DNA of 64,000 nt from Schmidtea nova. Lineage: Eukaryota. The stretch lies in NCBI GenBank assembly GCA_044892505.1, contig CM097882.1:348068001-348132000 (forward strand), written 5' to 3'. This document shows, piece after piece, positions 1 to 11,175 of the stretch (position 1 is the stretch's first letter; every line of letters begins with the position of its first letter). A program made the translations under genes and the position numbers. The notes beneath the pieces were generated by a model. That model made no database searches, was not told the origin of the DNA, and saw only the letters and a list, made by a program, of their open reading frames with translations.

Positions 1-2682
1 ATGTAAATTGCTAGCTTTTCTGTACAATAAAATCCTAAAATTAGACATTATTCCTACAAGTTGGAAATCATTTAAAACGATACTAATCCCCAAACCAGAT
101 AAAAATGGCCAATATCATAAAATATATTCTTGGCGACCAATTGCCTTATTATCTGTCATTTACAAAGTCTTCGCTTCAGTTTTGGCAAATCGTCTAAGCT
201 TATGGATAAGAAATAATTCCATGTTACACATTGGCCAAAAGGGTGGTTCGGAGTACGAAGGATGTATTGAACACAACTCTATTCTTTCTGCTATCGTCGA
301 ACATTCAAAATACAGCAAGTCTTCACCTTTAACGATAGCTTGGCTAGACATCAAAGATGCCTTCGGAAGTGTTCCACATGACTACATGTGGACACTGTTA
401 AAACACATAAATTTTAGTGATAGGTTTGTAGGAATTTTAAAACTGCTCTATACTGATACAAGCTCGTTTTATTGTTGCAATAAAATGCAGACACCGGATA
501 TTCCAATAAAGAAAGGAGTTAAACAAGGTTGTCCGATCTCAATGATATTGTTTGCAATAGCTATTAACCCAGTACTTGAGTCTATTAACCTATCAAACGT
601 TAATCCTTTTACGATTGGAACGTCTCCGGTACAGGTGTTGGCTTATGCGGATGATATCGCACTTATCGCGACAAATACCTCTGATCTGCAAATACTCATA
701 AACGTTGCTGTAAACACCGCTAAAACAATTGGATTTGAATATCGTCCAGAAAAGTGCGCTTATATGCAATACCCTAAATCAGAAACTGTAAGCGAGATTT
801 CTGTCAACAACGTTCTTATCAAAAAGATTGCAACAAATGAATTTTACCAATACTTGGGAGTACCAATAGGTGACAATAATGATCAAAGTCCCTATGAAAT
901 TCTAAGCAAAGTAATTGAAGACACAAAGAAAATAGCAAATTCTGATCTTTACGGCTGGCAAAAACTTAAAGCGTATAAGGTCTTTCTGCATTCTCGCTTG
1001 ATTTTTCCATTTAGAACTAGGGAAATCAAAACAAGTTCTTTAGCTGATTCGAGTAAAAATTCAAAATTAAATGTAAATAATACGAGTATTTTGAGGAGTC
1101 ATCTTAGAAAAATATTGCACTTGCCACACTACTCTGAGATTAGCTATTTTTATAATTCTACTGAAAACGGCGGTGCAGGCTGCATAGACTTACTTGACGA
1201 GTATCATACACAGACAATCGTGTACTTTTTCCGCTTGTTAACATCAACGTGCGAATATTCGAAAAAGATAAATACTGACTCGCTTTTATTTGTCACAAGT
1301 CCGAGACTCGGAATCAAAAATCCAGTTCTTAAACAAAGTTTAGAATGGATAAATGGAAAAGAGAGCAAGAAAAACAACAGTGGTTGCAAAACTCGATTTT
1401 ATCGATTGCGATCATCCAATGCTTACTTTTCTAAAGTTCACAACATTAAATTGTTATTTGAAACAGTGAAAGGGAATCCTTCTATTCGGATAACCACTAC
1501 ACTTAAGGGAACACGTATATTATTACCAACATTAAGAAAAGCATTGTCAATGATTTTACATTCAGCTCTCCAGGATTCGTATCTCGAGAAATGGGAGAAT
1601 AGCAATCATAATAATCTGCTTGTATCTGCGATTAAACTCTGTCCACTTGTCAACAAGCTTATTTTCCGCAGTGATTTGACAGAATTTGAATGGAGATTCG
1701 TCCATCGAGCAAGAACGAATACATTATCAATATTTGCGAAGCCATATAAAACTGGCGAAAATCGTCTTTGTCGTAGATGTAAGCTTGGAGACGAGACTTT
1801 ATCACACGTTCTTCAAACTTGTAAAATGAACAAATCTTTGGCAACTTGTCGACATAACGCTTGCTTAGAAAAAATAAAAAGCGAGTTGAAAGATCCAAAC
1901 TTGTTAGTTGTTGCGGATCATAAATGTTCCCTAGTACCGACATCAACTGAACGCGTTGAATTAATAATAACCAATAATGATAAAAAGACCATATTATTGG
2001 TAGACATGAAATGCCCAATCGATTCGGTGCCCAACTTTGACTTGGCTGATAAAAAAAACATAGAAAAGTATGATAAACTAAAATCAGAAATTAAAATAGC
2101 CAAACCCGATTATAAAGTTGAGTTGTTTACCTGCATCATAGGCTCATTAGGATCCATTGAAATTAAAACACCTGATCTTTTAGTAAAAATGGGCGTAAAA
2201 GAAAATAAAGTAAAGCGTCTGATGAAAGAGTGTGCAATTAGCAATATTGCACACTCGGCCAAAATTTGGTACTTTCATACCAATGACTTTCTTCCAGATA
2301 ATATAAGACAAACTTGTAAATAAATAATTATATATATATATATATATATATTTGCTTTTTAAACTCTGTAAATAAAAATTAAAGTAAATATTTTGTAAAG
2401 TAATTTTTGTTTTAAATATCCAATCTTTTTATTCTGATAAATTGTCTTTGAGAGTTATTAAATTGGGAGACCAAGTATTCTGCGACGTATGTCATTTATT
2501 CTAGACTTATCAACTTCAAAAGAATACAGTCGCAAAGCTGGATGACGAAATCCAAAGAACCAGAAACTTCCATTCAGATTGAACAATTATATTTTGACTG
2601 TGATTGTTAAGGGACTAATCCATGTCGATTAGATAATCTGTAAAAAAAATATGTCAAACTTGTTATATTTAATAAATGTTTA
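1..2682 (+). mobile_element. RLE non-LTR retrotransposon copy E1 (3' part; cut by window start)
   Basis: RT-CCHC-RLE coding end plus 359-bp 3' UTR ending ...AATAAATGTTTA, joined to tRNA nt 19 (TTATCAC) at 2683. Confidence 0.95.
2..2323 (+). CDS. E1 ORF2, C-terminal part: reverse transcriptase, CCHC zinc knuckle, restriction-like endonuclease (5' partial)
   Basis: WRPIALL, LDIKDAFGSVPH, GVKQGCP, YADD, YLG, CRRC-x8-H-x4-C, RHN, DMK, KY, GSLG motifs. Frame is open from the window edge. Confidence 0.95.
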   Translation, partial: CKLLAFLYNKILKLDIIPTSWKSFKTILIPKPDKNGQYHKIYSWRPIALLSVIYKVFASVLANRLSLWIRNNSMLHIGQKGGSEYEGCIEHNSILSAIVEHSKYSKSSPLTIAWLDIKDAFGSVPHDYMWTLLKHINFSDRFVGILKLLYTDTSSFYCCNKMQTPDIPIKKGVKQGCPISMILFAIAINPVLESINLSNVNPFTIGTSPVQVLAYADDIALIATNTSDLQILINVAVNTAKTIGFEYRPEKCAYMQYPKSETVSEISVNNVLIKKIATNEFYQYLGVPIGDNNDQSPYEILSKVIEDTKKIANSDLYGWQKLKAYKVFLHSRLIFPFRTREIKTSSLADSSKNSKLNVNNTSILRSHLRKILHLPHYSEISYFYNSTENGGAGCIDLLDEYHTQTIVYFFRLLTSTCEYSKKINTDSLLFVTSPRLGIKNPVLKQSLEWINGKESKKNNSGCKTRFYRLRSSNAYFSKVHNIKLLFETVKGNPSIRITTTLKGTRILLPTLRKALSMILHSALQDSYLEKWENSNHNNLLVSAIKLCPLVNKLIFRSDLTEFEWRFVHRARTNTLSIFAKPYKTGENRLCRRCKLGDETLSHVLQTCKMNKSLATCRHNACLEKIKSELKDPNLLVVADHKCSLVPTSTERVELIITNNDKKTILLVDMKCPIDSVPNFDLADKKNIEKYDKLKSEIKIAKPDYKVELFTCIIGSLGSIEIKTPDLLVKMGVKENKVKRLMKECAISNIAHSAKIWYFHTNDFLPDNIRQTCK

Positions 2683-2737: not shown

Positions 2738-2993
2738 TATTTTATTAATTAGAAACTTCCTAATCTTGATTTTTTCTCAATGGAACACCTTTCTCATATA
2801 TGTTACAATATTAAAAATGATTGAATAATCAGAGAAAAAAGTTAAAATTTCATTTTCATAAATGTAGTGTGTGAAAGCTTTCTATCCTTTTGCAATTTTA
2901 TGATTATTTTGTGCAGTGTTGTTTATTTAAATATGTAACTGTTGAAAAAAAGAATATTGGATATGAAAATGGATAAAGTATTGCAAGTGTTGA

Positions 2994-3001
2994 TATATAT
3001 A
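2994..3001 (+). promoter_or_regulatory. TATA-like (TA)n element at -41..-34 in spacer B (representative; present in every spacer B except the one before E3)
   Basis: TATATATA upstream of tRNA nt 1, with CAA immediately before nt 1. Position is compatible with a TFIIIB/TBP site, but the sequence is AT-rich so support is weak. Confidence 0.3.
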
Positions 3002-3034
3002 TTGTAAATTTTAACGATTGATAAATTCTTTCAA

Positions 3035-3043
3035 GGTTCGATG
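3035..3043 (+). pseudogene. 5' stub (nt 1-9, GGTTCGATG) of tRNA-Val interrupted by E2
   Basis: Spacer B end TTCTTTCAA + GGTTCGATG, then element sequence ACTCAATC. Confidence 0.9.
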
Positions 3044-5674
3044 ACTCAATCACCTGCTGCTCAGTCAACTGCTGCTGATGTAATGACTCAGTCTATTGCA
3101 AATCAGTCAACTGTGACGAAGCAATATGAATTAGAAAACATTCTCAAATATCAAATTTCCAGTTTGCAATGTTTTCAATCGATTTTAGATTATTTTTCTC
3201 AACTAAATGGTGGAAATCTCGCTACTGCCTCAGTTCTATCTGATGCGAATGCAAGTCAACGGAGTTCTTTCGATCAAGGATCTAAAATTTCTCCAAACCA
3301 ATCTGATAATATGCCACTTTCTTATGCTGATATTGAGACTAAATTCACTAAATCAAAGGATTTACTTATTGTCAAGCGCCTGGATTCATTGGAGTCTCAA
3401 TTTATGAATATGGCTGAAAAGTTAGATTATTTGGTTTCTTTGTTTAATGGCTCTGTTGATGATTTATCAGATTTTCCTAAAGTAAATGAAAATAATTTAA
3501 ATAATAATCCTTTCAATAAAAATAAAGTTTTTGATATCAAAGATAAATTAATTGTAAATAATGTAGTTTTAGATAAATCAAATATTTCAGAATTTATTGA
3601 AAATAATATTGCTAAAATTCCTAATAGTTTAATTGATGTAAATAATAAAATGTGTAATTCAAATAATAAATTTCTAAATAACCCTAATAAAGAGAATGTT
3701 AAACATTTTAATAATCCCAAAGATACATCTTCAATTGATTTGACTAACGATAAAATTATGCCAAATGAAAACATAGAAATAATTATTAAAAATAATAAAA
3801 AATCTGTTAAAATTATAGAACTTTATAAAACAACTAAACAGAAGTATGATAAATTTGAATTTAAAAGTCTGGTTCGTATTTTAACGAAAAGGGAACGCCA
3901 GAAAATCTTGAATGCCTTCCCTGCTTTAATACAACTAATTAAAAAGAAAGAATCACAGAGTAAATATTTTGAAATTAATAAATTTCTTTCGAGCAAAGAT
4001 TTTAATGTGAATCACTTGAATTTAATTAATTTTGATTATTTTTTCTATAGAAATTGTAATCTTTGTGTATCTTTAAAATTGAACAACGCTCCTGTCATTT
4101 CATCAGCACCAAAACCTGTTGTTTTAAAAACTATTAAATTAATTGACCATAATATCGTCAAAATAAATTCTGAAATCCCTGACTTTGTTCGAGCTCCAAT
4201 GTCAATTCGAAGATTTTTATTCAATCTTTCGCACGATCTTTCAAACACTGTTTCCATCAAGGATGAGAAACACAGGGGAAATAAAATAAATAACATTCTT
4301 ACTTCAATGAAACATAAACAACAATTACCAGATTATTTAATAAAATCAAACATTAAATACGAAAATGGTGAGTTCTTATTATTAGATTTGACTAACGATA
4401 AAATCAAATTGAACGACGATAATAACTTGATAAAATCAAATTTTTCTGAACTTACTAGAAGTCAGATTAAAAATCTTTACCATTCTTATCCTTCTCTTAA
4501 GGAAGTTTGTTTCGTTGAAAATCTTGAAACAAGATCATCATCCGTTAGTAAAATTATCGAATCTTTAAAGTTAATTAATGAATTTCCAAAAAATATCATT
4601 TTTAAAGAGGGTAAATTTTATCAGTCTGATAAAAGAACAATCTCACCTAGTAGTTCTCCTGACATAATGTTCAACCTTGGTCTTTTTAATTTAGCTAGTA
4701 TGAGTAGAAAAGATTGTGAATTAAAATCCATTTTAGAGAAGACTGGTTGTGACTTTAAAATAGTTGAAATAATATTCTACCTCAACTATTTAGGCTTGAC
4801 TCAATCTTTAGAATTTTGCAAAAATCAAACTTATTCTGATTATGTGAGGAATTACGTCTGCAATTGCTGCTTGATAAACTCACTCTGTAGTATTGCTGAT
4901 GTTGATTCGCTTTCATCTGAAGATTTTGAGGGTTGGGCGACCGAAATTGTTCAGAAAATCCCAGTTTCTTCCTATTACTTCAATAGCTGCCAGGAAAAGC
5001 TTTTAAAGCTGAAGCAATGGGACATTTCAACTAAAATCAAAAGAATCCATAACGTTATTTCACCTGAAATAATATCTTATTTAAATAACTTTCTTGACTC
5101 TGTAGACGTAAAATTTCCATCTAAGTCTCAACAACATAATATTCTAATTAAATTAATGAAAGCTATCAATGACATTAAAATTTTTGATGACATACACGGA
5201 AATAAAGCAAAAAGACTTGTTTACTTTTTGCTAAGAGATGCCAAGAAATATTTGAATAAAAATCAACGATTCAGATTATTTGAATCGAGCAATAAATATT
5301 GCACTTTAGAGATGGAGAATATAATTTCAGTAATAATTGAGAACCTTACCAAAGTTACTGACCATGAAGTTACTACTCCTGAAATCACAGTTGAAGAAAC
5401 GCCAATTGAAATAACTTGTGATCCTGAACCTATCGTCTTGATTAAGGAAATAAACTGTTTAAAATGCAACAATATCATCGAAAAATGCATTCTTGTTAGA
5501 GATGGAACAAACGTCAACATCTGTGAAAGCTGTCTATTTGACGCAATTACCTTTGAAAAGCCGATTCCTGAAGCTACTAATTCGGATATCGAAGAAAATA
5601 TAGAAACAAATTGTAAGAAATCTTGTCCAAGACCTAGAAAAACAGACAAGAAAACATCAACCAAAGCAAAATGA
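3041..5674 (+). CDS. E2 ORF1, 877 aa, Asn/Lys-rich, C-terminal C-x2-C-x18-C-x2-C zinc finger; function unknown
   Basis: Long ORF kept open in all 7 copies; no family recognisable by eye. Confidence 0.85.
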   Translation: MTQSPAAQSTAADVMTQSIANQSTVTKQYELENILKYQISSLQCFQSILDYFSQLNGGNLATASVLSDANASQRSSFDQGSKISPNQSDNMPLSYADIETKFTKSKDLLIVKRLDSLESQFMNMAEKLDYLVSLFNGSVDDLSDFPKVNENNLNNNPFNKNKVFDIKDKLIVNNVVLDKSNISEFIENNIAKIPNSLIDVNNKMCNSNNKFLNNPNKENVKHFNNPKDTSSIDLTNDKIMPNENIEIIIKNNKKSVKIIELYKTTKQKYDKFEFKSLVRILTKRERQKILNAFPALIQLIKKKESQSKYFEINKFLSSKDFNVNHLNLINFDYFFYRNCNLCVSLKLNNAPVISSAPKPVVLKTIKLIDHNIVKINSEIPDFVRAPMSIRRFLFNLSHDLSNTVSIKDEKHRGNKINNILTSMKHKQQLPDYLIKSNIKYENGEFLLLDLTNDKIKLNDDNNLIKSNFSELTRSQIKNLYHSYPSLKEVCFVENLETRSSSVSKIIESLKLINEFPKNIIFKEGKFYQSDKRTISPSSSPDIMFNLGLFNLASMSRKDCELKSILEKTGCDFKIVEIIFYLNYLGLTQSLEFCKNQTYSDYVRNYVCNCCLINSLCSIADVDSLSSEDFEGWATEIVQKIPVSSYYFNSCQEKLLKLKQWDISTKIKRIHNVISPEIISYLNNFLDSVDVKFPSKSQQHNILIKLMKAINDIKIFDDIHGNKAKRLVYFLLRDAKKYLNKNQRFRLFESSNKYCTLEMENIISVIIENLTKVTDHEVTTPEITVEETPIEITCDPEPIVLIKEINCLKCNNIIEKCILVRDGTNVNICESCLFDAITFEKPIPEATNSDIEENIETNCKKSCPRPRKTDKKTSTKAK

Positions 5675-8600
5675 AGATGTGTGCCTGCATCAGCTCAATC
5701 GTCTGCCATTCCCTCTAATGAGACTGATGCAGAGAGCACAACTAAAAATAATATTTCAACTATCGACAATCGTGATCCTGAAGTGTGGTTTTCTGATAAT
5801 GATATTGATTGGTATCTTGAAAACCACATTGATAATCCAATGCATGGATATATTAAATGCTTTATAGTAAATATCATCTGTTCTAACATCACAGAAGATA
5901 TTGTTGAAATTCCACCATCTATTAGCAATGCTGAAATTGTATTTTGTCCACTCAACATTAACAATTCGCACTGGATTCTTTTTGTTTATAGTAAGAAAAT
6001 GTTATCTTCTTACTTTATTGACCCAATCCTTGCAAACAGACAAAAGCCAATCAATAAACAAATGGCTCAGAGAATTAATCTAAAACTGAATAGATTTTTT
6101 AATCTAAATATATCTGTGTCCCGACATCCACACAAACATCTTGAATATCAGAATAACAGCTTTGACTGTGGCCCATTTACGTGTGCTTATGCTGTGATTA
6201 TCAGTAAAGATTTGAACAGCTTTCCAAATGGGTTCATAGAGAAAATTCGTACCAGTGTGCATGAAAATCAAAATCGTATGCAAATAACCGAATCCACCTT
6301 ATTCGCTGGTACTAACTCCAAGATGGACATGACCAAAATAAATATCAAGAAAGCCCTTGCAAAAAAGAAAGTCATCACCAACACCTCAGATATGACCAAA
6401 GTATTGAACACTCAAAAACCGTGTGTGTCATCAATAATTAGTAAATATTACGAAAGTAATTCTAAAATAACAGTCTTATCTGCCGAACTAACTTTAAACC
6501 TAATTGCACAAAATACCTCCTTCATAGCTGATAATGTCACTTTCAAGCAGTTCAAAGGAATCGATCATGTTATAAGTATCATTCCTAAATTTAACGATTG
6601 GTGTCTCTTTGTCTATTCGAATAAACTTGACAGGAGCTACATGTTCGACTTCAATTATCGAAACATTGATGAAAGGCTAATTGAAATTGGTGAAAAGATA
6701 ACTGAATATCTGAATCAATTCACTCTTGTTTCTAAAATAAAATTCACACCTCATCATAGAATTTCTCATCCAACATTTCATTCTTACGATGATCAATATT
6801 TTGCAAGTTCTTTTATTGTATTTTTTGAGAAACTTGTCTTTGAAAGAATACTGGACAATGATAAGGTTTATGACTCATTAAGTGCTCTAAAATATCAGTC
6901 TTGTAAAGATCTTTCTCCTAGCCTAAGTTTCATTAATGGTAAAATATCCGACAAAATTATTGAGGAATATTTTGCTAGCCTAAACTTATCGACCAAATAT
7001 ATTCTTCTAAACACAACAATGTGTACTGCGCTTTCAGATGATTGCACTGAATACTTGAAAGACTTTGTAAACATTGAGTGCATGATGAAGGCTACTATAA
7101 TCTTTGTAATCATTTCTCCTCCAAGAGCCAACGACTTGCTCATGGTTATTGATTACGACGCTGATGAGCACTATTTATTAAGCCCAGTCACTAATGACTT
7201 GTTCGTTATGACTGAAGGATTCTGCTATAAATTACTAATTAAAATTAATGAGATTAGAGAGAGCACAGGACGTTCCTTGAAATCGCGTAATTGTCGACAT
7301 GACGTTAAAGGTTCTGGCTTATTTAGTAGGTTATTAATCTGTGCCTTTATTAAATATTATGCATTTGACCGATCTCTAGAAAATATCAATCTTCATGAAA
7401 TTGGCAAAATTATCTACTCACTTGTGCCATTGGTTGATAAAAATGATAATGCTGAGGAAGAAAGACGACTAAAATCAAAAGCTGTAAACTCTTTAAAACT
7501 AAATTTAAAACAGCGAATAGAAAAAGCCAATAATCTTATAATTTCACTTGAACACGCCAGTATTGATGAAATCATAAGTGGCATTCTTTCAAATATTCCT
7601 CGTCTTAAAGATTTGAACACCGATCACATTCGTACACCATATTTAGGTACTAAAATAGAAAAAGCTAGAAAATTCAAAAATTCCACTGAGTTTCTGTCAA
7701 ACATGAAAAAGACTGTGTATAGGATTTTGGGTAACAACACAGAATCAATTGCACCTCCTTATCAGGAAATTATTGACACTTTCAGTCATCCTGATACATT
7801 ACCTAGAAATTGGGAAAACATCTTAAAATTCACTAAGAGTTCTAAATATAGTCTTGAATTAAATCCAATGACACCTAAAGAAATCCTTTCAAGTCTTTGC
7901 AAAGCTGACAACACTTCTCCAGGTCTTGATAATGTTTGTTATAAAGATCTTTTGTTATTAGACCCTGAATGTAAATTGCTAGCTTTTCTGTACAATAAAA
8001 TCCTAAAATTAGACATTATTCCTACAAGTTGGAAATCATTTAAAACGATACTAATCCCCAAACCAGATAAAAATGGCCAATATCATAAAATATATTCTTG
8101 GCGACCAATTGCCTTATTATCTGTCATTTACAAAGTCTTCGCTTCAGTTTTGGCAAATCGTCTAAGCTTATGGATAAGAAATAATTCCATGTTACACATT
8201 GGCCAAAAGGGTGGTTCGGAGTACGAAGGATGTATTGAACACAACTCTATTCTTTCTGCTATCGTCGAACATTCAAAATACAGCAAGTCTTCACCTTTAA
8301 CGATAGCTTGGCTAGACATCAAAGATGCCTTCGGAAGTGTTCCACATGACTACATGTGGACACTGTTAAAACACATAAATGTTAGTGATAGGTTTGTAGG
8401 AATTTTAAAACTGCTCTATACTGATACAAGCTCGTTTTACTGTTGCAATAAAATGCAGACACCGGATATTCCAATAAAGAAAGGAGTTAAACAAGGTTGT
8501 CCGATCTCAATGATATTGTTTGCAATAGCTATTAACCCAGTACTTGAGTCTATTAATCTATCAAACGTTAATCCTTTTACGATTGGAACATCTCCGGTAC

Positions 8601-10644
8601 AGGTGTTGGCTTATGCGGATGATATCGCACTTATCGCGACAAATACCTCTGATCTGCAAATACTCATAAACGTTGCTGTAAACACCGCTAAAACAATTGG
8701 ATTTGAATATCGTCCAGAAAAGTGCGCTTATATGCAATTCCCTAAAATAGAAACTGTAAGCGAGATTTCTGTCAACAACGTTCTTATCAAAAAGATTGCA
8801 ACAAATGAATTTTACCAATACTTGGGAGTACCAATAGGTGACAATAATGATCAAAGTCCCTATGAAATTCTAAGCAAAGTAATTGAAGACACAAAGAAAA
8901 TAGCAAATTCTGATCTTTACGGCTGGCAAAAACTTAAAGCGTATAAGGTCTTTCTGCATTCTCGCTTGATTTTTCCATTTAGAACTAGGGAAATCAAAAC
9001 AAGTTCTTTAGCTGATTCGAGTAAAAATTCAAAATTAAATGTAAATAATACGAGTATTTTGAGGAGTCATCTTAGAAAAATATTGCACTTGCCACACTAC
9101 TCTGAGATTAGCTATTTTTATAATTCTACTGAAAACGGCGGTGCAGGCTGCATAGACTTACTTGACGAGTATCATACACAGACAATCGTGTACTTTTTCC
9201 GTTTGTTAACATCAACGTGCGAATATTCGAAAAAGATAAATACTGACTCGCTTTTATTTGTCACAAGTCCGAGACTCGGAATCAAAAATCCAGTTCTTAA
9301 ACAAAGTTTAGAATGGATAAATGGAAAAGAGAGCAAGAAAAACAACAGTGGTTGCAAAACTCGATTTTATCGGTTGCGATCATCCATTGCTTACTTTTCT
9401 AAAGTTCACAACATTAAATTGTTATTTGAAACAGTGAAAGGGAATCCTTCTATCCGTATAACCACTACACTTAAGGGAACACGTATATTATTACCAACAT
9501 TAAGAAAAGCCTTGTCAATGATTTTACATTCAGCTCTCCAGGATTCGTATCTCGAGAAATGGGAGAATAGCAATCATAATAATCTGCTTGTATCTGCGAT
9601 AAAACTCTGTCCACTTGTCAACAAGCTTATTTTCCGCAGTGATTTGACAGAATTTGAATGGAGATTCGTCCATCGAGCAAGAACGAATACATTATCAATA
9701 TTTGCGAAGCCATATAAAACTGGCGAAAATCGTCTTTGTCGTAGATGTAAGCTTGAAGACGAGACTTTATCACACGTTCTTCAAACTTGTAAAATGAACA
9801 AATCTTTGGCAACTAGTCGACATAACGCTTGCTTAGAAAAAATAAAAAGCGAGTTGAAAGATCCAAACTTGTTAGTTGTTGCGGATCATAAATGTTCCCT
9901 AGTACCGACATCAACTGAACGCGTTGATTTAATAATAACCAATAATGATAAAAAGACCATATTATTGGTAGACATGAAATGCCCAATCGATTCGGTGCCC
10001 AACTTTGACTTGGCTGATAAAAAAAACATAGAAAAGTATGATAAACTAAAATCAGAAATTAAAATAGCCAAACCCGATTATAAAGTTGAGTTGTTTACCT
10101 GCATCATAGGCTCATTAGGATCCATTGAAATTAAAACACCTGATCTTTTAGTAAAAATGGGAGTAAAAGAAAATAAAGTAAAACGTCTGATGAAAGAGTG
10201 TGCAATTAGCAATATTGCGCACTCGGCCAAAATTTGGTACTTTCATACCAATGGCTTTCTTCCAGATAATATAAGACAAACTTGTAAATAAATAATTATA
10301 TATATATAAATATTTGCTTTTTAAACTCTGTAAATAAAATTTAAAGTAAATATTTTGTAAAGTAATTTTTGTTTTAAATATCAAATCTTTTTAATCTGAT
10401 AAATTGTCTTTGAGAGTTATTAAATTGGGAGACCAAGTATTCTGCGACGTATGTCACTTATTCTAGACTTATCAACTTCAAAATAATACAGTCGCAAAGC
10501 TGGATGACGAAATCCAAAGAACCAGAAACTTCCATTCAGATTGAACAATTATATTTTGACTGTGATTGTTTAGGCACTAATCCATGTTGATTAGATAATC
10601 TGTAAAAAAAATATGTCAAACTTGTTATATTTAATAAATGTTTA
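3044..10644 (+). mobile_element. RLE non-LTR retrotransposon copy E2 (7601 bp)
   Basis: ORF1 + ORF2 + 353-bp 3' UTR between tRNA nt 9 and nt 19. Confidence 0.96.
5681..10291 (+). CDS. E2 ORF2: Ulp1-like protease(s) - RT - CCHC - RLE (start uncertain; GTG is only the ORF-finder call)
   Basis: HW97-98/D114/QNNSFDCG163 Ulp1 triad; PGLDN, AFGSVPH, QGCP, YADD; CRRC..H..C; RHN; RVD..DMK..KY RLE. Confidence 0.95.
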   Translation: MPASAQSSAIPSNETDAESTTKNNISTIDNRDPEVWFSDNDIDWYLENHIDNPMHGYIKCFIVNIICSNITEDIVEIPPSISNAEIVFCPLNINNSHWILFVYSKKMLSSYFIDPILANRQKPINKQMAQRINLKLNRFFNLNISVSRHPHKHLEYQNNSFDCGPFTCAYAVIISKDLNSFPNGFIEKIRTSVHENQNRMQITESTLFAGTNSKMDMTKINIKKALAKKKVITNTSDMTKVLNTQKPCVSSIISKYYESNSKITVLSAELTLNLIAQNTSFIADNVTFKQFKGIDHVISIIPKFNDWCLFVYSNKLDRSYMFDFNYRNIDERLIEIGEKITEYLNQFTLVSKIKFTPHHRISHPTFHSYDDQYFASSFIVFFEKLVFERILDNDKVYDSLSALKYQSCKDLSPSLSFINGKISDKIIEEYFASLNLSTKYILLNTTMCTALSDDCTEYLKDFVNIECMMKATIIFVIISPPRANDLLMVIDYDADEHYLLSPVTNDLFVMTEGFCYKLLIKINEIRESTGRSLKSRNCRHDVKGSGLFSRLLICAFIKYYAFDRSLENINLHEIGKIIYSLVPLVDKNDNAEEERRLKSKAVNSLKLNLKQRIEKANNLIISLEHASIDEIISGILSNIPRLKDLNTDHIRTPYLGTKIEKARKFKNSTEFLSNMKKTVYRILGNNTESIAPPYQEIIDTFSHPDTLPRNWENILKFTKSSKYSLELNPMTPKEILSSLCKADNTSPGLDNVCYKDLLLLDPECKLLAFLYNKILKLDIIPTSWKSFKTILIPKPDKNGQYHKIYSWRPIALLSVIYKVFASVLANRLSLWIRNNSMLHIGQKGGSEYEGCIEHNSILSAIVEHSKYSKSSPLTIAWLDIKDAFGSVPHDYMWTLLKHINVSDRFVGILKLLYTDTSSFYCCNKMQTPDIPIKKGVKQGCPISMILFAIAINPVLESINLSNVNPFTIGTSPVQVLAYADDIALIATNTSDLQILINVAVNTAKTIGFEYRPEKCAYMQFPKIETVSEISVNNVLIKKIATNEFYQYLGVPIGDNNDQSPYEILSKVIEDTKKIANSDLYGWQKLKAYKVFLHSRLIFPFRTREIKTSSLADSSKNSKLNVNNTSILRSHLRKILHLPHYSEISYFYNSTENGGAGCIDLLDEYHTQTIVYFFRLLTSTCEYSKKINTDSLLFVTSPRLGIKNPVLKQSLEWINGKESKKNNSGCKTRFYRLRSSIAYFSKVHNIKLLFETVKGNPSIRITTTLKGTRILLPTLRKALSMILHSALQDSYLEKWENSNHNNLLVSAIKLCPLVNKLIFRSDLTEFEWRFVHRARTNTLSIFAKPYKTGENRLCRRCKLEDETLSHVLQTCKMNKSLATSRHNACLEKIKSELKDPNLLVVADHKCSLVPTSTERVDLIITNNDKKTILLVDMKCPIDSVPNFDLADKKNIEKYDKLKSEIKIAKPDYKVELFTCIIGSLGSIEIKTPDLLVKMGVKENKVKRLMKECAISNIAHSAKIWYFHTNGFLPDNIRQTCK

Positions 10645-10699
10645 TTATCACGTCTGCTTTACACGCAGAAGGTCCCCGGTTCGATCCCGGGTCGAACCA
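10645..10699 (+). pseudogene. 3' part of tRNA-Val(TAC) interrupted by E2
   Basis: tRNA nt 19-73, loop TT-TAC-AC, followed by spacer A. Confidence 0.95.
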
Positions 10700-10924: not shown

Positions 10925-11167
10925 ATTAATTAGAAACTTCCTAATCTTGATTTTTTCTCAATGGAACACCTTTCTCATATATGTTACAATATTAAAAATG
11001 ATTGAATAATTAGAGAAAAAAGTTAAAATTTCATTTTCATAAATGTAGTGTGTGAAAGCTTTCTATCCTTTTGCAATTTTATGATTATTTTGTGCAGTGT
11101 TGTTTATTTAAATATGTAACTGTTGAAAAAAAGAATATTGGATATGAAAATGGATAAAGTATTGCAA

Positions 11168-11175
11168 GTTCGATG
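11168..11175 (+). pseudogene. 5' stub (nt 2-9) of tRNA-Val interrupted by E3; 49-bp upstream deletion
   Basis: ATTGCAA-GTTCGATG-ACTC; distance to the preceding gene is 49 bp shorter than in other copies. Confidence 0.88.

What the first reader, a model, noticed from the sequence alone, without database searches (positions are those of the whole stretch)
3035..3050. No 5' UTR: the ORF1 start codon coincides with host tRNA nt 7-9
Seen: GGTTCG-ATG-ACT-CAA. A7-T8-G9 of the tRNA is the first codon of ORF1 in all copies, so there is no element-specific leader, promoter or 5' ribozyme. Inference: the element depends on the array for transcription start and leader, as R2 depends on the rRNA transcript. 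Caveat: the ATG could equally belong to the element, as microhomology at a 5' truncation.
Basis: partly seen in the sequence, partly recalled or inferred. Interest (0 to 1): 0.7.

Follow-up and report, generated by a model that had tools for sequence, protein, structure and literature searches.

The report
Leaderless retrotransposon inside tRNA-Val array
A site-specific jumping gene sits in many copies inside a tandem array of valine tRNA genes with its first protein codon lying on three letters of the host tRNA itself, and it probably borrows the start of its RNA from the host DNA in front of it rather than being a broken copy.

Summary
Observation holds in 6 of 7 copies with a visible 5' end; the seventh keeps only GTTCG+ATG after a 49-nt upstream deletion. 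The element is a 7.6-kb two-ORF NeSL-clade (R5/LIN-like) retrotransposon (Ulp1 protease, RT, restriction-like endonuclease) replacing tRNA-Val nt 10-18/19. It is not a dead truncation: ORF1 is as long as its homologues (one also starts MTQS), differences among copies are under purifying selection down to codons 1-100, and the same 5' junction sits on two different 3' tRNA alleles. The ATG is probably the element's own start codon, shared with the tRNA by 3-nt microhomology. Best reading (0.5): the template RNA starts in host DNA (Pol II, spacer A or tRNA nt 1-2) and its host letters re-anneal at each insertion, as in R2 lineages with uniform junctions. The literal R2 analogy fails: Pol III cannot read the element (T5 at +153, A/B boxes lost), and no ribozyme was found. 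A real rival (0.25) is an internal initiator-type promoter inside codons 1-23, with codon-15 ATG as start. No RNA data or whole genome were available. Also found: a conserved hairpin right after the in-frame ORF1 stop.

The parts
2738..3034 (+). Spacer A of the tRNA-Val array (297 nt); the only spacer type found in front of an element (7 of 7)
   Evidence: 14 of 24 intact tRNAs have spacer A, 10 have spacer B
2994..3000 (+). TATA-like run at -41 in spacer A (absent from the last 80 nt of spacer B); candidate host promoter element
   Evidence: consensus match only
2987..3035 (+). 49-nt segment missing in front of copy 11173; in one of three registers it begins GT and ends AG, with a branch-point-like TTAAC and a pyrimidine run (acceptor is the rarer AAG)
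3035..3043 (+). tRNA-Val nt 1-9 left at the 5' junction; nt 7-9 are the ATG
3041..5674 (+). ORF1, 877 aa, no Pfam/PDB match, conserved core (about aa 275-775) and C-terminal CxxC..CxxC; ends in TGA in frame with ORF2
3041..3124 (+). Two copies of a 42-nt unit (27 of 42 identical), each starting ATG ACT CA; second ATG (codon 15, 3083-3085) has a purine at -3, the first has T
3046..3108 (+). Cluster of initiator-like motifs (TCAGTC at 3061, 3088, 3103; TCAATC at 3046), invariant in 7 of 7 copies
   Evidence: consensus TCAKTY from PMC4581360 Table 1
5675..5743 (+). RNA hairpin directly after the ORF1 stop, overlapping a GTG (5681) where homologues start ORF2
   Evidence: (z -2.1; 3 of 200 shuffles as good), amino-acid covariation in homologues
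5681..10291 (+). ORF2: Ulp1/C48 protease, RT, CCHC knuckle, RHN and PD..D-K restriction-like endonuclease motifs
10292..10645 (+). 3' UTR (354 nt) ending in AATAAA + 7 nt; last 38 nt match planarian LIN25_SM 3' end at 33 of 38 (by eye)
10646..10699 (+). tRNA-Val nt 20-73 (TAC allele here) at the 3' junction
11160..11175 (+). Variant 5' junction of copy 2: spacer A joined at -49 to tRNA nt 2-9 and the same ATG

Best explanation
The element is an active, full-length NeSL-clade retrotransposon whose present-day lineage has no 5' UTR of its own. SHOWN: fixed 5' junction at the ORF1 ATG, full-length ORF1, purifying selection, at least two independent 3' integrations. INFERRED: (1) the ATG is the element's own start codon, joined to tRNA nt 7-9 by 3-nt microhomology in an ancestral insertion that also removed tRNA nt 10-18/19; (2) a Pol II transcript starts in host DNA just upstream (spacer A or tRNA nt 1-2) and ends at the element's AATAAA, so host letters form the leader; (3) ORF2 protein nicks a new tRNA-Val gene at nt 19/20 and copies the RNA; (4) the cDNA end, carrying tRNA nt 1/2-9 and perhaps spacer, anneals upstream and primes the second strand, regenerating the same leaderless junction and the same deletion each time, as proposed for R2 lineages with uniform junctions; (5) with so short a leader and a weak first context, part of translation probably starts at the duplicated ATG of codon 15.
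For: Junction identical in 6 of 7 copies, same element start in 7 of 7. Variable sites among copies: ORF2 42 synonymous/19 replacement (p 1e-15), ORF1 16/23 (p 0.002), codons 1-100 8/5 (p 0.003); no frameshift in either ORF of the 6 complete copies or in the sequenced part of the seventh. ORF1 homologues of 814-960 aa have 151-368 residues before the first invariant Arg against 279 here (second longest of 7); P0126 begins MTQS (chance about 0.0015 over 8 homologues). 3' flanks are CAC+spacer A in 3 and TAC+spacer B in 4 of 7, with the anticodon only 14 nt from the junction; copies 19945 and 29461 differ at 4 of 7607 nt yet have different 3' flanks. The 11173 junction keeps tRNA nt 2-9 while losing 49 nt upstream, as expected if the cDNA ended in host letters (microhomology priming, or a spliced leader: GT-AG ends occur in 16 of 3776 possible deletions ending near the junction, 16 of 379 of those with >=2-nt microhomology). 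All 7 elements sit on one upstream haplotype carried by 7 of 24 intact tRNAs (p 0.0013, copies not independent). Precedent: uniform R2 junctions with fixed target deletions when RNA carries host sequence (PMC3774820, passages); NeSL-1 proposed to use the SL1 promoter (PMC7650587, passage); in LIN9_SM 5' junctions (PMC4640811 S6 Fig) 12 of 12 rows keep a target-derived ATG 14 codons upstream and in frame with the only frame open across the visible element letters (my reading by eye, not noted in the passages I searched).
Against: No RNA evidence: no RNA run listed, contigs only. In the four DNA runs the spacer A contig runs unbroken into the intact tRNA and no contig across the element junction was among the rows shown (244 loose ends and 966 pieces not shown), so the junction was not confirmed outside this window. 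A uniform junction with a small deletion can also come from a fixed second-strand cut (NeSL-1_TV shows a uniform 4-nt deletion, by eye). Copies are mosaics, so selected variation could have been imported by recombination from UTR-bearing copies elsewhere. The TATA-like run lies inside the 49-nt segment, so the 'TATA start' and 'spliced leader' sub-models cannot both describe one transcript; the acceptor is AAG, not the UUNYAG reported for flatworm SL sites (PMC12582326). Initiator-like motifs inside the element point to an internal promoter.
Confidence: 0.5

Rival explanations
1. Self-contained element with an internal Pol II promoter written into ORF1 codons 1-23 (initiator-like repeats); the first 42 nt act as promoter and leader, protein starts at codon 15, and the uniform junction comes from a fixed second-strand cut plus the ATG microhomology. 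The host supplies at most three shared letters.
For: 3 of the 8 TCAGTY motifs of the 7605-nt element lie in its first 70 nt, invariant in 7 of 7 copies; protein-preserving recoding gives >=3 in 117 of 20000. Motifs at element nt 21 and 48 are spaced like Inr and DPE (4 of 6 DPE letters by eye against PMC4581360 Table 1). Second ATG has the better -3 context. The conserved MTQS could reflect the DNA motif rather than the peptide.
Against: The motifs arose by duplication and are not independent; the consensus is Drosophila's and the host is not known. A start at any of these motifs would drop element nt 1-7 or 1-22 from new copies, yet all 7 copies keep them. It does not explain the host letters kept at the 11173 junction.
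Confidence: 0.25
2. All copies descend from one or two 5'-truncated insertions that lost the UTR at an ATG microhomology and were multiplied by unequal crossing-over in the array; the working copies, with their own 5' UTR, lie elsewhere.
For: Copies are 0.05-1.5% apart and mosaic; all share one upstream haplotype; the ATG looks element-born; no whole genome could be searched.
Against: Landing exactly on codon 1 is about 1 in 125 ATG sites; passive duplicates should show neutral variation and frameshifts, not pN/pS 0.12-0.35; two 3' tRNA alleles need at least two integrations. Weak hint only: in four other DNA runs contigs of the ORF1 5' part (depth 152, 113, 91, 85) are about as deep as the 3' UTR region (150, 105, 124, 127), and contigs holding paired ORF1+ORF2 homologues leave only 605 and 1239 nt for both UTRs and flanks.
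Confidence: 0.18
3. Literal R2 analogy: the element is cut out of a long array co-transcript made by Pol III read-through from the upstream tRNA genes.
For: Element lies in the sense orientation of the tRNA genes.
Against: 56 runs of >=4 T and 18 of >=5 T on the sense strand, the first T5 at +153; no A- or B-box match in the first 370 nt; each upstream tRNA is followed by a T run; no ribozyme to release the RNA.
Confidence: 0.04

Closest known systems
Planarian LIN families of the R5/LIN lineage, NeSL clade (LIN25_SM, tRNA-Glu; LIN15_SM, tRNA-Arg; LIN9_SM, 28S), Kojima & Jurka 2015, PMC4640811 (passages, section 10, S6 Fig parts 1-2 read)
   Same: RLE non-LTR element inside tRNA genes; last 38 nt match LIN25_SM at 33 positions with AATAAA 7 nt before the junction (by eye); LIN9_SM 5' junctions also show no UTR and an in-frame target ATG (by eye).
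   Different: Target is tRNA-Val nt 19/20 (LIN25_SM: tRNA-Glu after nt 4; LIN15_SM: tRNA-Arg). S6 Fig gives no 5' boundary for LIN25_SM. No LIN protein was available, so the lineage was not tested by tree.
NeSL-1 of C. elegans (Malik & Eickbush 2000; not held; known through PMC4640811 and a passage in PMC7650587)
   Same: Ulp1-like protease before the RT, RLE at the end, site-specific in a small-RNA gene, proposed to need no promoter of its own.
   Different: NeSL-1's target SL1 is a Pol II gene and it has one ORF (recalled); here the target is a Pol III gene, there are two in-frame ORFs, and the start codon itself overlaps the target.
R2 lineages with uniform 5' junctions (Eickbush et al. 2013, PMC3774820, abstract and passages)
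   Same: Uniform junction with a fixed target deletion (springtail 7 bp), explained by host sequence on the RNA annealing upstream; RT region matches R2 structures.
   Different: R2 has a long 5' UTR with an HDV-like ribozyme, a Pol I co-transcript and no required AUG (PMC13580325, passages); this element has no UTR or ribozyme and a cap-type AUG start at the junction.
NeSL-1_TV (Trichomonas, tRNA-Pro)
   Same: NeSL-related, inside a tRNA gene, uniform 5' junction with small target deletion.
   Different: Junction is followed by element sequence with no ATG at the junction in the rows shown; site is in the T arm.

Membership tests
RLE (R2-group) non-LTR retrotransposons | RT domain of non-LTR type | tested here: met
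   PF00078 E 1.8e-29; best solved relatives are R2 proteins, E 3e-87
RLE (R2-group) non-LTR retrotransposons | C-terminal CCHC knuckle, RHN/RHD, PD..D-K and KY motifs | tested here: met
   all four patterns found after residue 1300 of ORF2 (patterns recalled)
RLE (R2-group) non-LTR retrotransposons | Fixed 3' insertion site in a multicopy gene | tested here: met
   7 of 7 3' junctions at tRNA-Val nt 19/20
NeSL clade | Ulp1-like cysteine protease N-terminal of the RT | tested here: met
   PF02902 E 6e-7; His, Asp, Gln, Cys invariant in 9 of 9 aligned sequences
NeSL clade / R5-LIN lineage | RT phylogeny groups it with R5/LIN | not testable with these tools
   No R5 or LIN protein was returned by any search (one search lists none by name); only the 3'-end likeness to LIN25_SM
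R5-LIN lineage | Two ORFs (recalled for R5; paper not held) | tested here: inconclusive
   Two ORFs here and in homologues, but the R5 arrangement itself is from memory
R2 clade proper | 5' UTR with HDV-like self-cleaving ribozyme | tested here: not met
   no UTR; no Rfam hit, no HDV-type core
R2 clade proper | Co-transcription with the host gene by the host gene's own polymerase | tested here: not met
   sequence rules out Pol III read-through; actual polymerase not testable
Host-promoter-dependent elements (NeSL-1 model) | Transcript starts in host DNA upstream of the junction | not testable with these tools
   no RNA run; indirect signs only

The most novel reading that the evidence does not exclude
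A lineage of tRNA-targeting retrotransposons has given up its 5' UTR altogether: it is transcribed by Pol II from the flank of a Pol III gene (with a cryptic intron in that flank, caught as a retro-copy at 11173), its start codon is re-supplied by tRNA nt 7-9 at every insertion, and target-derived start codons are a general trait of the R5/LIN lineage (as the LIN9_SM junctions hint); ORF2 is then reached through a conserved hairpin at the in-frame ORF1 stop.
Probability: 0.3. Interest if true: 0.75.

Novelty: new variant of a known kind. Interest (0 to 1): 0.52.

Why it matters
How RLE retrotransposons that sit in Pol III genes are transcribed and translated is open; the R2 answer (Pol I co-transcript plus ribozyme) and the NeSL-1 answer (Pol II snRNA promoter) do not apply. 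An element with zero UTR whose start codon overlaps the target makes the question directly testable with one CAGE or 5' RACE experiment, ties target choice to expression (only tRNAs with ATG at 7-9 and the right flank would make new active copies), and shows a minimal 5' module that is relevant to engineering site-specific insertion. The conserved hairpin at the ORF1 stop is a second testable recoding signal.

Tried and rejected
Whole-genome search: no genome held. Sequencing runs: 4 DNA-type contig sets of one study, no RNA holder listed; laying them did not resolve the 5' junction (24 loose ends shown, 244 not; the spacer A contig runs on into the intact tRNA, which graph simplification can cause); depths used only as a weak hint. 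DNA around relatives: 33 metagenome loci and 3 genome loci are distant RT matches with no ORF1-type or ORF2 N-terminal hit; viral contigs gave none; a 3'-end motif gave 0 matches in genome contigs. Word-index searches for ORF1 found nothing at near length or as a fused longer protein (weak evidence); the exhaustive search found 18. ORF1 function: no Pfam above cut-off, no Atlas hit, model mean pLDDT 56.6 and no PDB match at E<=0.001. 5' RNA structure: fold of 2985-3185 not unusual (z -1.4). Bacterial promoter scan uninformative. SL trans-splicing at the AG before tRNA G2 considered and rated low: acceptor does not fit UUNYAG and the host is only inferred to be a flatworm; a search for the tRNA start in papers found none. 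Likeness of the start unit to the hairpin loop (25 of 42) is within the background (24, 23) and was dropped. Literature: searches found no description of a target-supplied start codon or of this ORF1-stop hairpin; R5 and NeSL-1 original papers are not held, Repbase entries could not be seen, and S6 Fig part 3 and the other nine supplements of PMC4640811 were not read. Earlier scan notes: nothing relevant.

Full report
Setting. The window is a tandem array of tRNA-Val genes (24 intact, CAC and TAC alleles, two spacer types) broken by eight copies of a 7.6-kb element, seven with a visible 5' end and seven with a visible 3' end. ORF2 carries a Ulp1-type protease, an RT and the CCHC, RHN, PD..D-K and KY motifs of a restriction-like endonuclease. 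The last 38 nt match the 3' end of planarian LIN25_SM at 33 positions, by eye, with AATAAA 7 nt before the junction in both. It is therefore a NeSL-clade element, probably of the flatworm R5/LIN lineage described in PMC4640811 (section 10); lineage and host were not tested by tree, and the host is an inference.

The observation. tRNA nt 1-9 are followed directly by element sequence, and nt 7-9 form the first codon of the 877-aa ORF1. Six of seven copies have exactly this junction. The seventh (11173) has the same element start but lacks 49 nt upstream and keeps tRNA nt 2-9. At 7 of 7 3' junctions the tRNA resumes at nt 19/20, so nt 10-18/19 are deleted. No ribozyme was found by Rfam or by a loose recalled HDV-type pattern.

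Is it a broken copy? Probably not. (a) ORF1 is full length: the exhaustive search returned 18 relatives; the six of 814-960 aa have 151, 238, 248, 257, 265 and 368 residues before the first invariant Arg against 279 here, and P0126 starts with the same MTQS (chance about 0.0015 over the 8 aligned homologues). (b) Variation among the copies is selected: 42 synonymous to 19 replacement sites in ORF2, 16 to 23 in ORF1 and 8 to 5 in codons 1-100 (p 1e-15, 0.002, 0.003), and both ORFs are intact wherever sequenced. (c) The same 5' junction sits on two 3' contexts (CAC+spacer A in 3, TAC+spacer B in 4), with the anticodon only 14 nt from the junction, so at least two integrations are needed; copies 19945 and 29461 differ at 4 of 7607 nt but have different 3' flanks. 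(d) A chance truncation joined at an ATG would hit codon 1 about once in 125. Against: copies are mosaics, so recombination with unseen UTR-bearing copies could import selected variation, and no genome could be searched.

Whose ATG? Both. The first 42 nt are repeated once inside the element (27 of 42 identical, the best match in the element), and the second unit has its own ATG at codon 15; with the MTQS homologue this makes the codon look element-born and shared with the tRNA by 3-nt microhomology.

Where could the RNA start? Not by Pol III read-through: the A box is cut, no B box follows, and the sense strand has 56 runs of four or more T and 18 of five or more, the first T5 at +153. The AATAAA at the 3' end points to Pol II. 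Two signs favour a start in host DNA. First, the 11173 junction loses 49 nt upstream but keeps tRNA nt 2-9, as expected if the cDNA ended in host letters; in one of its three registers the missing piece is bounded by GT and AG with a branch-point-like TTAAC (16 of 3776 possible deletions ending near the junction have such ends, 16 of 379 among those with 2-nt microhomology; post hoc, and the acceptor is the rarer AAG). Second, all 7 elements follow one upstream haplotype (spacer A, C at -51) carried by 7 of 24 intact tRNAs, while their downstream flanks vary (copies are not independent, and protein recognition of the spacer or a founder effect could also do this). Spacer A, not B, has a TATA-like run at -41, but it lies inside the 49-nt piece, so the two sub-models exclude each other for a given transcript. 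R2 offers the mechanism: where the template keeps upstream host sequence, junctions are uniform and a once-made deletion is propagated (PMC3774820, passages).

The main rival. The first 70 nt hold 3 of the element's 8 TCAGTY motifs plus a TCAATC, invariant in 7 of 7 copies; recoding that keeps the protein gives three or more in 117 of 20000 trials (the motifs are duplicates, so this overstates the case). TCAKTY is the Drosophila initiator (PMC4581360 Table 1), and the codon-15 ATG has a purine at -3 where codon 1 has T. The element may thus carry an internal promoter inside its coding sequence. Its weakness is that starts at these motifs would drop nt 1-7 or 1-22 from new copies, which all copies keep. 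A uniform junction can also come from a fixed second cut: NeSL-1_TV has a uniform 4-nt deletion (by eye).

Comparison. Host dependence has been proposed for NeSL-1 in SL1 genes (passage in PMC7650587 citing Malik & Eickbush 2000; original not held) and shown for R2, which however has a ribozyme-bearing UTR and needs no AUG. In S6 Fig of PMC4640811 the 12 listed LIN9_SM 5' junctions all keep a target-derived ATG 14 codons upstream, in frame with the only frame open across the 64 visible element letters (my reading by eye; whether this is LIN9's true start is unknown, and the main text has no passage on start codons). Ten literature searches found no description of a target-supplied start codon; subscription papers and Repbase were not visible.

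Other reads. Four DNA contig sets of one study hold the element. They show a second subfamily about 90% alike in the RT region and extra depth over 5649-5912, but the rows shown do not include a contig across the 5' junction. No RNA holder was listed, which is no evidence either way.

Found on the way. ORF1 and ORF2 are in one frame, separated by a single TGA in 7 of 7 copies. A hairpin follows at once (5675-5743; z -2.1). Of the 10 close ORF2 homologues examined, 9 were called from the matching position with an MPA/MPV/MHA start, and the residues encoded by the two arms covary: Ser with Asp in five sequences including this one, Pro with Gly in four, Thr with Gly in one. ORF1 homologues end at about the same place, and three share contig lengths with ORF2 homologues. 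This is a conserved recoding or re-initiation signal.

Verdict. The feature is real and most likely functional: a new variant of host-dependent 5' ends in site-specific retrotransposons. Host-started RNA 0.5, internal promoter 0.25, founder truncation 0.18, Pol III co-transcript 0.04. Interest 0.52; the transcription step is wholly inferred.

Noticed in passing
window 5672-5743 (and the six other copies): ORF1 and ORF2 are in the same frame, separated by one TGA followed at once by a hairpin that overlaps a GTG; homologous ORF2 proteins start at the same place and show Ser/Asp versus Pro/Gly covariation across the arms. Likely programmed read-through or GUG re-initiation; no variable site in codons 879-933 among the copies.
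   Followed up: partly
window 11120-11175: 49-nt deletion in front of copy 2 has GT-AG ends in one register and removes the TATA-like run; possibly a retro-copy of a spliced leader.
   Followed up: partly
window 3041-5674: ORF1 defines an unnamed protein family (18 relatives, 814-960 aa when whole) with a confidently modelled core at about aa 275-775, an internal repeat-like alpha/beta unit and a C-terminal CxxC..CxxC; no Pfam, Atlas or PDB match.
   Followed up: partly
window 5681-7600: ORF2 has about 640 aa before the RT region, far more than the single Ulp1 domain needs; later segments resemble degenerate protease-like repeats by eye (not tested).
   Followed up: no
runs X1-X4 on window 5649-5912 and 8980-10237: A second subfamily about 90% alike in the RT/endonuclease region, and other families that match only around the hairpin and Ulp1 start, exist in the same organism.
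   Followed up: no
window 10846-57858: Array is built of CAC-spacer A-TAC-spacer B dimers and CAC-spacer A monomers; no element follows spacer B (0 of 7, against 10 of 24 intact genes).
   Followed up: partly
PMC4640811 S6 Fig, LIN9_SM 5' boundaries: By eye, the element frame is open up to the junction and in frame with an ATG 14 codons upstream in the 28S target, kept in 12 of 12 rows while deletions fall only upstream of it.
   Followed up: no
window 2326-2350 and equivalents: A (TA)n run just after the ORF2 stop varies in length among copies; it is the only indel site among the elements.
   Followed up: no
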